From NCBI RefSeq assembly GCF_054482525.1, contig NZ_CM137006.1: 64,000 nt of DNA; one strand, 5' to 3'. Position numbers: made by a program. This document shows positions 8,059 to 11,000 of this stretch, piece by piece. Position 1 is the stretch's first letter; each line of letters starts with the position of its first letter.

Positions 8059-11000
8059 TTTCTGTAGTCCCGGCGATAGTACATTTCTTCTTTCAGGTGA
8101 CCAAAGAAGTTCTCCATTACCGCATTATCAAGGCAGTTGCCCTTGCGCGACATGCTCTGCACTAACCCTCTGTCCGCCAGGGCGGACTGATAACTTTTTA
8201 TCCGGTAATGCCATCCTTGATCACTGTGGAGCAGCGGTTTCTCCCCTTCAGCAAGGCTTTCCAGCCCCTTATTTAACATCCGCTTCACCAGCTCCTCTGT
8301 AGGCCTGCAGGCCGTTTCCCACGCCACGATTTCCCCGTTAAACAAATCAAGTATCGGGGACAGGTACAGTTTTTGTCCGCCAGCCCTGAATTCGGTGATA
8401 TCTGTCACCCATTTCTCACAGGGAGCTTCCGCTTTGAACTGCCGCTGAAGGATATTTTCTGCAGCGAGTCCCATATTTCCCCGGTAAGACCGGTATTTCT
8501 TCAGGCGCACAGGAGACTTCAGGCCGAGCTGTTGCATCAGTTTTCGCACCGTTTTGCCACTGAACTTAAGACCTCTTTTCTGAAGCTCACAATGGATCCG
8601 CCGGTACCCATAACATCCCCGGTGTTCATGGAAGATGGAGGCTATGAGCTGTTTCACATCAGCATACTTGTCCTTAGCCTTCTGCAGTGACAGCTGGTAG
8701 TACAGCGTGCTTCTGGCCAGCCCTGCAGCCTTTAACAGGTCAGACTGGCAGTGTCCGCACCTCAGGCTCCGGATGACTTTCGTTTTTTCTCCAGCTCCTG
8801 GCGCTTTTTTTCCAGGAGATGCTCCTGCATGGCTTTCAGATATGCATTTTCTGCGCGAAGATAACGCAGCTCATTCTTCATCTCTTCCGGCGTCATGTTT
8901 GCCTCGTTTTCATGGGTATCATCAGAACGGGTCATGCTTTTCTCCTTCCTGCGCCTGATAAAGGCCTCATTACCAGATTTGCGGTAGCCTTTTATCCAGT
9001 TTTTAACCGTGTTGTGGCTGGGAATGTTAAACCGGGCAGCTACCCGGGGTAGAGACTCAGAATGCCCGAGAGCATAAAGAACCACGCAAAGTTTATCTTC
9101 AGGAGAATAGCTACGCTTGTGTCTGCAATCCAGTGCCCGAGGACCGTGAAGAAGAAAAAGATTAATCCAGTGTGAGAGGCTGGTGTGAGAAAGTTGAAAG
9201 AGTTTTGCCGTAGAAATGATGCCTGCATGACCAGCCAGGTAGTGATTTACAGCGGCAAGTTTTACTTCAAATGAATGTTTCATAAACTGCACCTTCAGAT
9301 GTCAGATTATGTCCAACATTTGGGGTGCAGTTCAGTTTACGCCGCATCCGGCGGTTATGCGCTGATGCCTGATGCGGCGCGGGCGCGTCTTATCATGCCT
9401 GGAAGTCTGCGCCCGAATCGTAGGCCGCCTCCGCTATATTAACTGGCATTGGCAAATTACTCGTCACTACCTTTATTCATGTTTTTTTGGTCTTCATCCG
9501 GATAATGTTTTTTTAGATATTCCAGGACGTTTTTATTGACCTTGTGTTGCGTATACACCCACCCTTTCCAGTAATCAGGCTGGTCCAGGTAAACTTCTGG
9601 CGGAATGGTGAAATCAGAAAGCGTTAACCATTCGGCTAACAGATCGGGGTTTCGTTTCTGGATTAACTGCAACAGCATAATCAGTGACATAGCTGAGGCA
9701 GGAGCCGTACTATCACCACTCAAATATTTCCACACTGTTGACCGGTTCGAACGAAAAAGGATCGGTAGCAATGCCCGGTCCAGATTCATTTCATTAAAAA
9801 TCTTCTCAAATTCATTCATTTAAATTTTCCTGCCTGGCGTAAACCTCTTAAAAATTGAGATTTATCAAAGAAACGCATTTTAGCACACATCAGGAACCGC
9901 TTCACGTTTAGTCCAGAAACAGAATTTATTTCGCTTATCAAAACAAGTCTTTACTCTTTTTTACATTGAAAGAGCACAAAATGATTTTCTATTTTATTTA
10001 TATAAGAAACATTTTTTGTTTCTTATTGGTGGTGTTTACGCTTACACCAAACAAAAATGCGCTTTACATCACACAAATGGCGGCGTAGATTTCGATCAAA
10101 TTGCAACGCAGATTAATTCTTATAACAACGTTTTACGTTGCTTATAGAAACAAATATGTGACTTACTTTGAAAGAGAAAAAATGCATGAAAACTGTAAAG
10201 CTGTCTTTACTGGCTGTCGTTGTTGCTACCGCGGTAAGTCCATCTGCGTTTGCGGGTGATACTGTTGAGGCGGCAACGACAGAATTAACGGCAATCCAGC
10301 CAGGAATGTCGCAATCGGAAATTGATCAGAAAATTGGTCGATTTTTAGAAAGGACAGGGAATAGTGCAGCCGCACAAAATTATCTGATTGCGCATGATTA
10401 CCGGACAACGACACCTCAGGAAAATACAGCTGCTTCTCCCGTACAGCCCACCAATACGCTGAACCCGATAACCAATCAAGCGCAGACCGACCGCGACAAC
10501 GGGCAGGATACCGCCATTCAGGACGCACAACATGCCGCCAACTGGGCTTCAATGAAAGCTGATGACGCGCAGCACGCCATTATGGTGGCGCAGACGGATA
10601 TTGATGCCAATAAAGCCGCCATCGCCGACACCCGTAATGATGTCTCCGCAGTGCAGTCAGACGTCACCAACATAAAAGGCGATGTCGCACATGCCCAGTC
10701 AACGGCTGACCATGCCAACGCTAACGCCAACGCCGCTCTGATGAACGGCGTCAAACTTTCCGGTGCTGTGACAGAAAACAAAAATAATATCGAACAGAAC
10801 CGCAGCGATATTGCTGACCAGCAGCAACAACTCGACGAAACCCGGAAAACCGTTGCCGCCACCGGTGATGTACAGACTGCCGCCCGATATCAGAGCATGA
10901 TTGACGCCAGACAGACTGCTGCTGCCAATGCGCAACAGGAACAAGCGGACACCCAGCAGCAACAAATGGACGATCAGCAGAAACAAATCGACGCGACGCA

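What the first reader, a model, noticed from the sequence alone, without database searches (positions are those of the whole stretch)
9820..10185. Strongly AT-rich divergent control region upstream of the adhesin gene
About 365 bp with long A/T tracts between the divergently oriented 120-aa ORF and the adhesin gene. This composition is typical of horizontally acquired, H-NS-silenced promoters, and the divergent small protein is a candidate local regulator.
Basis: inference. Interest (0 to 1): 0.3.

Follow-up and report, generated by a model that had tools for sequence, protein, structure and literature searches.

The report
Control region of an adhesin islet
This AT-rich 366-bp spacer is the shared control region of a small accessory E. 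coli islet (O-island 29), lying between an unrecognised DNA-binding regulator gene and a surface-adhesin operon; it carries a conserved array of short repeated binding sites, so it is a fairly ordinary regulatory region rather than just AT-rich DNA silenced by H-NS.

Summary
**Observation:** confirmed. Window 9820-10185 is a 366-bp gap between a 120-aa ORF (minus strand) and a YadA-type adhesin gene (plus strand). Its GC is 31.7%, against 55% for the window.

**Identity:** the locus is O-island 29 of E. coli O157:H7 (z0640 | z0639 | z0638). It occurs in 1415 of 5426 complete E. coli genomes.

**What the AT-richness hides:**
- The spacer keeps its length (about 360-410 bp) and low GC (29-38%) in 12 related loci from several genera.
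- It holds two conserved divergent promoter-like elements.
- The hexamer AGAAAC/GTTTCT is strongly enriched (38 copies in 8 spacers, 2.3 expected). The copies include a perfect palindrome and three sites spaced exactly 22 bp apart, just downstream of the predicted adhesin start site.

**The small protein:** it is a Cro/C1-type helix-turn-helix protein (confident model; best fold matches are HigA2, P2 C and MqsA). Its gene lies divergent to a YadA-anchor gene in 13 of 15 loci. In one relative, both the recognition helix and the repeated motif differ.

**Best reading:** a divergent promoter-operator region controlled by its own local regulator.

**H-NS:** plausible as an added layer but unproven. 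The one hns transcriptome I could read is inconsistent.

**Literature conflict:** the adhesin gene was published as the transcription factor "GmrA", which its sequence contradicts.

The parts
9457..9819 (-). 120-aa gene (z0640 orthologue) encoding a Cro/C1 (XRE)-type helix-turn-helix protein; candidate local regulator
   Evidence: ORF and translation. The z0640 deletion primers of PMC5826968 flank the orthologous ORF in EDL933. AlphaFold model has pLDDT 90.6. The Foldseek list is dominated by XRE HTH proteins: HigA2 (prob 1.0), P2 C, Aca2, MqsA and C-proteins. Family members hit MqsA_antitoxin, Xre-like-HTH, HTH_3 and HTH_26.
9820..10185 (.). 366-bp AT-rich divergent intergenic control region (the finding)
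   Evidence: GC 31.7%, lowest 0.18% of windows. Length and low GC are conserved across genera. Conserved blocks appear in the 9-sequence alignment A1.
9877..9885 (-). Predicted extended -10 promoter element of the regulator gene (minus strand 5'-TGcTAAAAT-3'); predicted start near 9870; weak -35
   Evidence: My reading of alignment A1: TGnTAnnAT is kept in all nine sequences (GTGCTAAAAT, GTGGTAAAAT, ATGGTAAAAT, ATGCTATCAT, GTGATATAAT). It was not detected by the consensus scan, which requires a -35. Inference, not mapped.
9869..9874 (+). AGAAAC site 1, overlapping the predicted start site of the regulator gene (position expected for autoregulation)
   Evidence: Invariant AAGAAAC block in A1. 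It sits at the same offset, -218 to -231 from the adhesin -10, in the orthologues.
9915..9933 (+). Operator-like site AGAAAC-N7-ATTTCG (2 mismatches to AGAAAC-N7-GTTTCT)
   Evidence: Pattern search. CAGAAAC is conserved in A1. Direct-repeat family D2, shared with 10005-10022.
9950..9964 (-). Direct repeat GTAAA-N5-GTAAA (response-regulator-type; matches the CpxR box as I recall it)
   Evidence: Only 2 exact matches in 64 kb against 0.04 expected. It is partly conserved as yTTAC-N5-yTTAC in A1. The assignment to CpxR or OmpR is from memory and untested.
10002..10026 (.). Perfect palindrome ATAAGAAACA-N5-TGTTTCTTAT (core AGAAAC-N7-GTTTCT), centred about 84 bp upstream of the predicted adhesin start site; strongest operator candidate
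   Evidence: Inverted repeat I6, 10-nt arms, 100% complementary. It is the only 0-mismatch match in the window. It is retained in roughly half of the nine aligned spacers.
10063..10091 (+). Predicted sigma-70 promoter of the adhesin operon: TTTACA-17 bp-TAGATT; predicted start near 10098, 5' UTR about 88 nt
   Evidence: Consensus scan. The block GCTTTAC.T.ACA-N8-GG.GTA..T is invariant in all nine sequences of A1 and present in L018. The start site has not been mapped.
10103..10151 (+). Three RnAAC sites (GCAAC 10103-10107, ACAAC 10125-10129, GAAAC 10147-10151) spaced exactly 22 bp apart in the initial transcribed region; the middle one is part of an imperfect palindrome at 10124-10142
   Evidence: Sequence. 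The same 22-bp phasing occurs in L008, L009 and L013, and 44 bp in L002-L004. 10124-10142 matches the operator pattern with 3 mismatches.
10186..11601 (+). YadA-type trimeric autotransporter gene (471 aa; orthologous locus to z0639/ECs0548 'Saa-like', published as 'GmrA')
   Evidence: YadA_anchor scores 45.2 bits against a 22.7 cut-off. Signal peptide. The EDL933 orthologue matches solved AtaA and Hia anchors. The gmrA deletion primers flank exactly this ORF in EDL933.
11687..12309 (+). Two downstream genes, probably in the same operon: a 140-aa lipoprotein (z0638 orthologue; lipobox LLAGC) and an overlapping 67-aa membrane peptide
   Evidence: The same gene order is found in Pseudocitrobacter and in EDL933, NU14 and 042.

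Best explanation
The 366-bp spacer is the bidirectional promoter-operator region of O-island 29.

**Layout (inferred)**
- One promoter (extended -10, about 9877-9885, minus strand) drives the 120-aa gene.
- The other (TTTACA-17-TAGATT, 10063-10091, plus strand) drives the adhesin-lipoprotein-peptide operon through an 88-nt leader.
- Between and just downstream of them lies an array of AGAAAC/GTTTCT half-sites. It comprises one site on the regulator's own start, a perfect AGAAAC-N7-GTTTCT palindrome near -84 of the adhesin promoter, and three sites 22 bp apart (the same face of the helix) at about +5 to +54.

**Mechanism (inferred)**
- The divergently encoded Cro/C1-type HTH protein most likely binds these sites as a dimer or higher oligomer.
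- It would limit its own synthesis and set the level of the adhesin operon, more probably as a repressor.
- The AT-rich backbone probably also attracts H-NS-type proteins. A response-regulator-type direct repeat (GTAAA-N5-GTAAA) may bring in envelope or osmotic signals. Together these could give the published dependence on temperature, osmolarity and pH.

**What is shown and what is inferred**
- Shown: composition, conservation, motif enrichment and phasing, the HTH fold, conserved synteny, and published expression of the operon.
- Inferred: promoter positions, who binds the repeats, the sign of regulation, and any H-NS, CpxR or OmpR involvement.
For: - **Composition and length.** Low GC and spacer length are conserved in 12 loci.
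- **Promoter blocks.** They are invariant across nine spacers from several genera.
- **Motif enrichment.** AGAAAC/GTTTCT occurs 38 times in 8 spacers against 2.3 expected (z 23.6), and GAAAC 53 times against 8.1. This is the only place in the 64-kb window with 3 or more copies per 366 bp.
- **Palindrome.** A perfect palindrome is present, and 3 of 20 loose matches fall in 0.6% of the window.
- **Site positions.** Positions relative to the -10 are conserved, and the 22-bp phasing recurs in distant loci.
- **Protein fold.** The 120-aa protein model has pLDDT 90.6, and its best matches are all XRE-type HTH DNA binders.
- **Synteny.** The gene lies divergent to a YadA_anchor gene in 13 of 15 loci, down to 32% identity.
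- **Covariation.** The relative with an altered recognition helix (PRNTIFNY in place of NRSTVWKY) has no GAAAC. It has AGAACA three times instead, including the palindrome AAGAACATTAAATGTTCTT.
- **Expression.** The operon is expressed and environmentally regulated (PMC5826968). The regulator gene is transcribed in EAEC 042 at RPKM about 91.
Against: - No binding, footprint or start-site data exist.
- The generic promoter scan finds no more sites here than in shuffled sequence (3 against 2.5). The promoter calls therefore rest on conservation alone.
- The window's own protein is below Pfam thresholds (MqsA_antitoxin E 0.08), and Foldseek E-values are weak (0.27 or worse).
- The motif-helix covariation rests on one divergent locus.
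- Deleting z0640 in EDL933 changed neither motility nor fliC/motA (PMC5826968). If z0639 really drives motility in a dose-dependent way, that argues against strong control of z0639 by z0640 in those conditions.
- A conserved host factor could bind the repeats instead.
Confidence: 0.55

Rival explanations
1. Plain xenogeneic silencing. The region works mainly through its composition: H-NS (with Hha or StpA) coats the AT-rich spacer and silences the adhesin promoter. Relief comes at 37 C or from a general anti-silencer, and the small protein and the repeats are incidental.
For: - GC is 31.7% in accessory DNA.
- Published expression is higher at 37 C than at 30 C and falls with osmolarity.
- In EAEC 042 the adhesin gene rises about 4.9-fold in hns and about 4.5-fold in hha hha2.
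- The neighbouring AT-rich tolC-like/giant-adhesin promoter is clearly derepressed in hns (5.1-fold) and in hns hns2 (8.8-fold) in the same table.
- From memory, untested here: other E. coli autotransporter genes such as upaG/ehaG are H-NS-repressed.
Against: - The gene is not silent in the wild type (RPKM 25, and measurable by qRT-PCR).
- The hns hns2 double mutant shows no derepression (28 against 25).
- Core neighbours follow the same sample pattern, which suggests a batch effect, and there is one sample per strain.
- Only two 8/10 matches to the H-NS nucleation motif are present.
- Composition alone does not explain the invariant blocks, the fixed site positions or the 22-bp phasing conserved across genera.
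Confidence: 0.2
2. The repeats are sites for a conserved host regulator rather than for the divergent HTH protein. Candidates are an OmpR/PhoB-family response regulator such as CpxR or OmpR, or RcsB. The small protein would then have another role.
For: - Exact GTAAA-N5-GTAAA at 9950-9964: 2 in the window against 0.04 expected.
- Spacing of direct repeats in multiples of 11 bp is typical of response regulators.
- The published osmolarity and pH dependence of z0639 mRNA.
- No phenotype for the z0640 deletion in the one study that made it.
Against: - AGAAAC is not a consensus I can assign to any E. coli regulator (from memory only).
- The array travels with the HTH gene across genera and to different chromosomal sites.
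- The repeated motif changes where the HTH recognition helix changes.
- One site sits on the HTH gene's own predicted start, the classic autoregulatory layout.
Confidence: 0.17
3. The conserved elements downstream of the adhesin promoter act in the mRNA leader, as a thermometer, riboswitch or sRNA/Hfq target, rather than in DNA.
For: - Three conserved motifs lie in the predicted 88-nt leader.
- AGAAAC reads as two A-R-N triplets.
- mRNA levels are temperature dependent.
Against: - There is no consensus structure in nine leaders (0 pairs).
- The E. coli leader folds no better than shuffles (z -0.37).
- There is no Rfam match in the spacer.
- The same motif also occurs upstream of both promoters and in both orientations.
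Confidence: 0.05
4. A phase-variation switch, either an invertible promoter segment or Dam/Lrp methylation patterns as in pap or agn43.
For: - It is an adhesin gene with a long AT-rich upstream region that contains inverted repeats.
Against: - Every listed E. coli match aligns collinearly in one piece, so no inverted alleles were seen.
- There is no recombinase gene in the islet.
- The spacer has a single GATC (10094), and it is GATT in EDL933.
Confidence: 0.03

Closest known systems
O-island 29 (S-loop 43) of E. coli O157:H7: z0638-z0639('gmrA')-z0640 (Yang et al. 2018, PMC5826968; Ogura et al. 2007, PMC2323221)
   Same: It is the same locus between ybbJ and cueR. The spacer is 366 bp and 93-96% identical, and the left 190 bp are almost invariant. 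Published qRT-PCR shows this promoter region to be active and responsive to temperature, pH, osmolarity and host-cell contact.
   Different: The control region itself, its promoters, the repeat array and z0640 as an HTH regulator have not been described in anything I found. The window carries a different passenger allele (471 aa, against 338 aa in O157 and NU14 and 717 aa in 042), and its +47 half-site is degenerate (GTTGCT). The paper calls z0639 a transcription factor, but its sequence is that of a secreted trimeric autotransporter.
Cro/C1 (XRE)-family regulators with divergent promoter-operator regions: phage CI/Cro switches, restriction-modification controller C-proteins, HigA2/MqsA antitoxins
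   Same: A small HTH protein of this fold. Palindromic operators with half-site cores about one helical turn apart. One operator sits on its own promoter, and there are several operators in a divergent spacer.
   Different: There is no toxin, restriction or phage partner, and the target is an adhesin operon. The spacer is much longer (366 bp) and has 5-8 sites, including a phased set inside the transcribed leader. The protein has an extra conserved C-terminal helical half (residues about 58-111) with no match. It falls below the Pfam thresholds of every family in this class.
SinR of Bacillus subtilis (XRE-type repressor of biofilm matrix operons; recalled from memory, not tested here)
   Same: A small XRE HTH with a helical oligomerisation tail. 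It binds many copies of a short motif (GTTCTYT, compare GTTTCT here) in direct and inverted arrangements upstream of surface or matrix genes.
   Different: The lineage is unrelated, and no sequence relationship was shown. No antagonist partner of the SinI type is visible in the islet.
H-NS-silenced autotransporter and adhesin promoters of E. coli (for example upaG/ehaG, upaC; recalled from memory)
   Same: An AT-rich upstream region of an accessory adhesin gene, with temperature-dependent expression.
   Different: H-NS occupancy and dependence are not shown here, and the available transcriptome is equivocal. This region also carries a conserved specific operator array and its own regulator.

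Membership tests
H-NS-silenced horizontally acquired promoter | Markedly AT-rich relative to the host genome | tested here: met
   GC is 31.7% against 55% for the window and 51% for the flanks, in the lowest 0.18% of windows.
H-NS-silenced horizontally acquired promoter | Lies in accessory or horizontally acquired DNA | tested here: met
   Present in 1415 of 5426 complete E. coli genomes and absent from the K-12 arrangement (ybbJ next to cueR, from memory). It is O-island 29, and it sits at a different chromosomal site in Pseudocitrobacter.
H-NS-silenced horizontally acquired promoter | H-NS occupancy in vivo (ChIP) | not testable with these tools
   No dataset covering the islet was found. 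Higashi 2016 (SE11, SE15, K-12) tabulates core genes only.
H-NS-silenced horizontally acquired promoter | Derepression in an hns mutant | tested here: inconclusive
   EAEC 042, Table S1 of PMC5861252: adhesin RPKM is 25.0 in WT, 121.6 in hns, 133.3 in hns2, 112.6 in hha hha2 and 28.0 in hns hns2. There is one sample per strain, and neighbouring core genes show the same sample pattern.
Cro/C1 (XRE)-type HTH transcription regulator (the 120-aa protein) | Five-helix HTH fold of the lambda-repressor-like class | tested here: met
   The AlphaFold model has pLDDT 90.6 and pTM 0.80. Foldseek matches HigA2 (prob 1.0, rmsd 2.4 A over 63 columns, TM 0.68 on the target), followed by P2 C, Aca2, Aca10, C-proteins, MqsA and lambda cI. 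E-values are weak, 0.27 or worse.
Cro/C1 (XRE)-type HTH transcription regulator (the 120-aa protein) | Sequence match to a curated HTH family above its threshold | tested here: not met
   The window protein has only MqsA_antitoxin at E 0.081, 13.5 bits against a cut-off of 30. Relatives reach E 2.4e-5 (MqsA_antitoxin), 3.7e-5 (Xre-like-HTH) and 2.5e-4 (HTH_3). There is no NCBIfam hit and no significant PDB sequence hit.
Cro/C1 (XRE)-type HTH transcription regulator (the 120-aa protein) | Palindromic operator(s) at or near its own promoter | tested here: met
   A perfect palindrome lies at 10002-10026, a half-site lies on the predicted own start at 9869-9874, and there is an array of 5-8 conserved sites. 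That this protein binds them is an inference.
Cro/C1 (XRE)-type HTH transcription regulator (the 120-aa protein) | Demonstrated sequence-specific DNA binding | not testable with these tools
   This needs EMSA, footprinting or ChIP.
Trimeric autotransporter adhesin (type Vc; the downstream gene) | C-terminal YadA-like membrane anchor | tested here: met
   PF03895 scores 45.2 bits (window) and 45.0 bits (EDL933 Z0639) against a cut-off of 22.7. There are sequence matches to solved AtaA and Hia anchors.
Trimeric autotransporter adhesin (type Vc; the downstream gene) | N-terminal Sec signal peptide and coiled-coil stalk | tested here: met
   MKTVKLSLLAVVVATAVSPSAFA|GD, by inspection. The long Q/A-rich region gives only coiled-coil-type weak hits (SMC, Rad50, DndD, MukB). 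No head domain was detected.
Trimeric autotransporter adhesin (type Vc; the downstream gene) | Adhesive function at the cell surface | not testable with these tools
   Not tested anywhere I found. Deleting OI-29 did not change adherence to HeLa or Caco-2 cells (PMC5826968).
CpxR (or OmpR-family) regulated promoter | Tandem GTAAA-N5-GTAAA box (consensus recalled from memory) | tested here: met
   An exact match lies at 9950-9964 on the minus strand, one of 2 in the window against 0.04 expected. It is only partly conserved in other genera. Binding and regulation are not tested.
Cis-regulatory leader RNA (riboswitch or thermometer) | Conserved, stable secondary structure with covariation | tested here: not met
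   RNAalifold finds 0 consensus pairs in nine leaders. MFE z-score is -0.37. There is no Rfam hit in the spacer.
Phase-variable adhesin switch (invertible element or Dam/Lrp) | Both orientations in populations, or paired conserved GATC sites | tested here: not met
   All listed matches are collinear in one piece. The single GATC is polymorphic. There is no recombinase in the islet.

The most novel reading that the evidence does not exclude
The real regulator of O-island 29 is the overlooked 120-aa protein Z0640. It would found a very small, Enterobacterales-restricted branch of XRE-type HTH proteins, dedicated to a cassette-like trimeric-autotransporter locus. It would act through an AGAAAC-N7-GTTTCT operator array that includes 22-bp-phased sites in the transcribed leader. 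Correspondingly, the published 'transcription factor GmrA' (Z0639) would be a secreted outer-membrane adhesin. Its effect on fliA and motility would then be indirect, for example through envelope-stress signalling.
Probability: 0.4. Interest if true: 0.55.

Novelty: new member of a known kind. Interest (0 to 1): 0.38.

Why it matters
- **Prevalence.** The islet is present in about a quarter of sequenced E. coli, including O157:H7, EPEC E2348/69, UPEC NU14 (with UTI89 listed in the published OI-29 survey), EAEC 042 and phylogroup D ExPEC.
- **Unmapped control logic.** The regulation of the islet has never been worked out.
- **Testable circuit.** Z0640 as an HTH regulator, together with its probable operators, gives a concrete circuit of binding sites, two promoters and possible H-NS and envelope inputs. 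This can explain the published regulation by temperature, osmolarity and host contact.
- **Literature conflict.** 'GmrA' is treated in reviews as a DNA-binding activator of fliA. Its sequence has a signal peptide, a coiled coil and a YadA membrane anchor.
- **Passenger swapping.** A control region and signal peptide that stay fixed while the passenger domain is swapped (338, 471 and 717 aa alleles) suggest a locus built for exchanging adhesin specificities under fixed regulation.

Tried and rejected
- **Rfam.** Scan of 7800-12800 found nothing in the spacer, only a weak REP-derived naRNA4 hit at 9340-9399.
- **Leader RNA structure.** No consensus pairs and no stability above shuffles.
- **Generic promoter/terminator scan.** No enrichment over shuffles. 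It was useful only for the site that conservation later supported.
- **First structure model.** With 13 close homologues it was poor (pLDDT 57). It improved only after adding distant homologues from the exhaustive profile search.
- **PDB sequence profile search.** Only noise such as Nup85, apart from one Xre antitoxin at E 0.84.
- **H-NS occupancy data.** Higashi 2016 ChAP-seq (SE11, SE15, K-12) tabulates core genes only, so the islet cannot be read. No paper text mentions z0640, ECs0548 or the guessed EC042_0532-0536 tags in an H-NS context.
- **H-NS nucleation motif.** Not clearly enriched in the spacer.
- **Plasmids and phages.** tblastn with the HTH protein found nothing genuine. The two 'plasmid' hits are 4.9-Mb chromosomes.
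- **Species-representative genome scan.** The close alignment found only 4 loci: Escherichia sp. E1V33, E. whittamii, Pseudocitrobacter and Ca. Symbiopectobacterium. This confirms the family is rare but adds little.
- **Loose operator pattern.** With 3 mismatches it is not enriched window-wide (20 against 17). Only its concentration in the spacer is informative.
- **Phase variation** by inversion or Dam was rejected.
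Full report
**1. The observation**

The window is E. coli chromosome. 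It is identical from position 9335 onward to phylogroup-D strain PCN033.

The 120-aa ORF occupies 9457-9819 on the minus strand. The adhesin ORF begins at the ATG at 10186 with a textbook signal peptide (MKTVKLSLLAVVVATAVSPSAFA|GD). The gap between them is exactly 366 bp. RefSeq uses the same ATG in EDL933 and NU14. In PCN033 it calls a later start, equivalent to window 10306, which would remove the signal peptide.

GC of the gap is 31.7%, against 55.3% for the window. Only 0.18% of 366-bp windows are as low, and they fall in two places, here and at 39071-39622. The description is therefore correct, although the A/T runs are modest (longest 16 nt, homopolymers up to 6).

**2. What the locus is**

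The gene order is as follows:
- ybbJ
- an IS element, in this window only
- REP elements
- the 120-aa gene (minus strand)
- the spacer
- the YadA-type gene
- a 140-aa lipoprotein gene
- a 67-aa membrane peptide gene
- cueR (convergent)

This islet is O-island 29 (S-loop 43) of O157:H7, comprising z0640, z0639 and z0638. I established that by mapping the published deletion primers onto EDL933:
- the 'gmrA' (z0639) arms flank exactly the 338-aa YadA-type ORF;
- the z0640 arms flank the 120-aa ORF;
- the z0638 arms flank the lipoprotein.

Ogura et al. listed ECs0548 as a 'Saa-like protein'.

The regulator gene, the spacer and the first codons of the adhesin (9457-10214) are present in 1415 of 5426 complete E. 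coli genomes at 88-100% identity. Most alignments stop just inside the signal peptide, because the passenger domain differs: 471 aa here, 338 aa in O157 and NU14, 717 aa in EAEC 042.

**3. The spacer is conserved as a functional unit**

I fetched the genomic context of homologues of the 120-aa protein. The gene lies divergent to a YadA_anchor gene (or an adhesin-sized gene) in 13 of 15 loci. These include:
- Pseudocitrobacter, at a different chromosomal site between qmcA and fetA;
- Ca. Symbiopectobacterium, where the adhesin is degraded;
- several metagenomic Enterobacterales, down to 32% protein identity.

In the 12 measured loci the spacers are 359-408 bp, with GC of 29-38% against 43-55% for their flanks.

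An alignment of nine spacers shows sharp conserved blocks in an otherwise divergent AT-rich background.
- **(a) Regulator promoter.** On the minus strand, TGnTAnnAT is kept in all sequences. I read it as an extended -10 promoter for the regulator gene (window 9877-9885, start near 9870).
- **(b) Adhesin promoter.** GCTTTAC.T.ACA-N8-GG.GTA..T is invariant. It coincides with the TTTACA-17-TAGATT promoter-like site at 10063-10091 found by the scan. This predicts a start near 10098 and an 88-nt leader.
- **(c) Ribosome-binding region.** It is conserved.
- **(d) A recurring AGAAAC motif.**

**4. The repeat array**

Across eight spacers, AGAAAC/GTTTCT occurs 38 times against 2.3 expected from dinucleotide shuffles (z 23.6). 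GAAAC occurs 53 times against 8.1. In the 64-kb window the spacer is the only place with three or more copies per 366 bp.

Positions relative to the adhesin -10 are conserved. In window coordinates the sites are:
- 9869-9874, on the predicted start of the regulator gene;
- 9915-9933, AGAAAC-N7-ATTTCG;
- 10002-10026, a perfect palindrome ATAAGAAACA-N5-TGTTTCTTAT. It is the only exact AGAAAC-N7-GTTTCT in the window and is centred near -84 of the adhesin promoter;
- GCAAC, ACAAC and GAAAC at 10103-10107, 10125-10129 and 10147-10151, exactly 22 bp apart, at about +5 to +54.

The 22-bp phasing recurs in L008, L009 and L013. The invariant AAC...GTT cores of the palindrome are 10 bp apart centre to centre, which suits a dimeric HTH protein.

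**5. The small protein**

The family is tiny. A profile search found 23 representative clusters among 1.84 billion proteins. There are no true plasmid or phage copies. Only four loci were found among species-representative genomes.

The window protein itself misses all curated thresholds. Family members, however, hit MqsA_antitoxin (HTH domain), Xre-like-HTH, HTH_3 and HTH_26.

With a 23-sequence alignment the AlphaFold model reaches pLDDT 90.6. The Foldseek list is dominated by XRE-type DNA binders: HigA2 (prob 1.0), P2 C, Aca2, C-proteins, MqsA and lambda cI. Residues 1-57 therefore form a Cro/C1-type HTH, with NRSTVWKY as the probable recognition helix. Residues 58-111 form a conserved helical tail of unknown role.

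One piece of covariation links the protein to the motif. In locus L020 the helix reads PRNTIFNY. There the spacer has no GAAAC at all. It has AGAACA three times instead, including the palindrome AAGAACATTAAATGTTCTT with the same N7 geometry. Locus L018, which keeps NRST..K., keeps AGAAAC and the GCTTTACATCACA block.

**6. Mechanism**

*Best-supported reading (confidence about 0.55).* The spacer is a bidirectional promoter-operator region. The divergent HTH protein binds the array, autoregulates through the site on its own start, and controls the adhesin operon through the -84 palindrome and the phased leader sites. Repression is the more likely sign, given the sites downstream of the start, but it is not established.

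*Evidence against.* There are no binding or start-site data. The covariation rests on one locus. Deleting z0640 gave no motility phenotype in EDL933.

*Rivals.*
- Composition-driven H-NS silencing as the main mechanism.
- A host regulator as the binder of the repeats. An exact GTAAA-N5-GTAAA box at 9950-9964 is notable (2 in the window against 0.04 expected). I recall this as the CpxR consensus, which would fit the published osmolarity and pH effects.
- Leader-RNA control, rejected.
- Phase variation, rejected.

**7. H-NS**

Composition and accessory status fit. Expression higher at 37 C than at 30 C is compatible. I found no occupancy data for the islet.

EAEC 042 has the same 366-bp spacing and an identical regulator protein. 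Its published count table has one sample per strain. RPKM values are:

| Gene | WT | hha hha2 | hns | hns2 | hns hns2 |
|---|---|---|---|---|---|
| Adhesin gene | 25.0 | 112.6 | 121.6 | 133.3 | 28.0 |
| ybbJ (core neighbour) | 107 | 185 | 145 | 194 | 111 |
| tolC-like gene of the adjacent giant-adhesin operon | 38.5 | 58.7 | 195.8 | 82.7 | 337 |

The neighbouring operon is convincingly H-NS-repressed. The islet shows at most a modest effect, and the double mutant contradicts it. I score H-NS silencing of this promoter as unproven. It is plausible as a modulating layer.

**8. Comparison with what is known, and novelty**

The island and its middle gene are published. I found nothing describing the control region, its repeats or z0640 as a regulator.

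A local XRE-type regulator with palindromic operators in a divergent spacer is a familiar design, seen in CI/Cro switches, C-proteins and antitoxins. SinR is a functional analogy recalled from memory. I therefore rate this as a new member of a known kind.

The more striking point is a conflict with the literature. Z0639/'GmrA' is described as a DNA-binding activator of fliA, yet:
- it has a signal peptide;
- it has a YadA anchor above threshold;
- it matches solved autotransporter anchors;
- the only 'DNA-related' similarities I see are coiled-coil artefacts such as SMC, Rad50, MukB and DndD.

**9. Verdict**

The control region and the local regulator are supported, while H-NS silencing is unproven.
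- Interest is moderate-low for the region as such. It is somewhat higher if the regulator-operator circuit and the GmrA reassignment hold.

Noticed in passing
window 10186-11601; L011 5730-6746 (EDL933 z0639): The gene published as the transcriptional activator 'GmrA' (Z0639) is, by the authors' own deletion primers, the YadA-type trimeric autotransporter gene. It has a signal peptide, a coiled coil, a YadA_anchor at 45 bits, and matches to solved AtaA and Hia anchors. Its 'DNA-related' similarities look like coiled-coil artefacts (SMC, Rad50, MukB, DndD). The published function conflicts with the sequence.
   Followed up: yes
window 7903-9334: A 1432-bp IS3-family insertion sequence (orfA 8762-9292, orfB 7935-8657, both minus strand; ends TGAACTG...CAGTTCA). 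It is inserted with a 4-bp duplication into the REP cluster between ybbJ and the regulator gene, and it is absent from PCN033. Its size and REP target recall IS1397 (from memory; identity not tested).
   Followed up: partly
window 10186-10306: In PCN033, RefSeq starts the adhesin CDS at the equivalent of 10306 (MSQSEIDQ...), which cuts off the signal peptide. In EDL933 and NU14 the upstream ATG is used. In EAEC 042 the current annotation keeps only the C-terminal 349 codons of what was earlier called as a 717-codon gene.
   Followed up: partly
window 10214 onward, compared with E. coli genomes: The regulator gene, the spacer and the first ~10 codons of the adhesin are shared by 1415 genomes, but most alignments break at about 10214. 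Passenger domains differ (338, 471 and 717 aa) while the C-terminal anchor is again similar. This is a cassette-like exchange of the adhesin passenger under a fixed control region.
   Followed up: partly
window 39196-39532 (low-GC cluster 39071-39622): This is the second strongly AT-rich spot of the window (minimum GC 29%). It is the 337-bp region upstream of the TolC-like gene (37840-39195, minus strand) that heads the type I secretion and giant adhesin (siiEA) operon. It holds no AGAAAC copies. In EAEC 042 this operon is clearly derepressed in hns (5-fold) and in hns hns2 (9-fold).
   Followed up: partly
window 16055-37737: The giant BapA/SiiE-like adhesin gene is split into two overlapping ORFs, 30913-37737 (2274 aa) and 16055-30937 (4960 aa). 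This indicates a frameshift near 30913-30937, as annotated in PCN033 and 042.
   Followed up: no
window 41917-41931: The only other exact GTAAA-N5-GTAAA in the window lies in the divergent glsA-copA spacer (41761-42022). It is a possible CpxR-type site at the copper-export promoter. Not examined further.
   Followed up: no
window 12106-12720: The 67-aa gene that ends the islet (stop at 12309) and cueR (stop at 12313) are convergent, with only 3 bp between their stop codons. That leaves no room for terminators, so read-through from the adhesin operon would run antisense into cueR and the type I secretion genes.
   Followed up: no
window 11687-12109: The 140-aa lipoprotein (lipobox LLAGC; z0638) always follows the autotransporter gene. 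It may be a dedicated biogenesis helper, in the manner of SadB for SadA in Salmonella (recalled from memory). There are no family hits, and this was not tested.
   Followed up: no
L019 and L020 (same chromosomal site, between a riboflavin-synthase-like gene and an MFS transporter gene): Two related genomes carry the regulator-adhesin pair at the same site, but with diverged regulators (P0024, P0027) and different repeated motifs in the spacer. L019 has GCAGAAA and TGATAA/TTATCA palindromes. L020 has AGAACA. This suggests that regulator and operators evolve together.
   Followed up: partly
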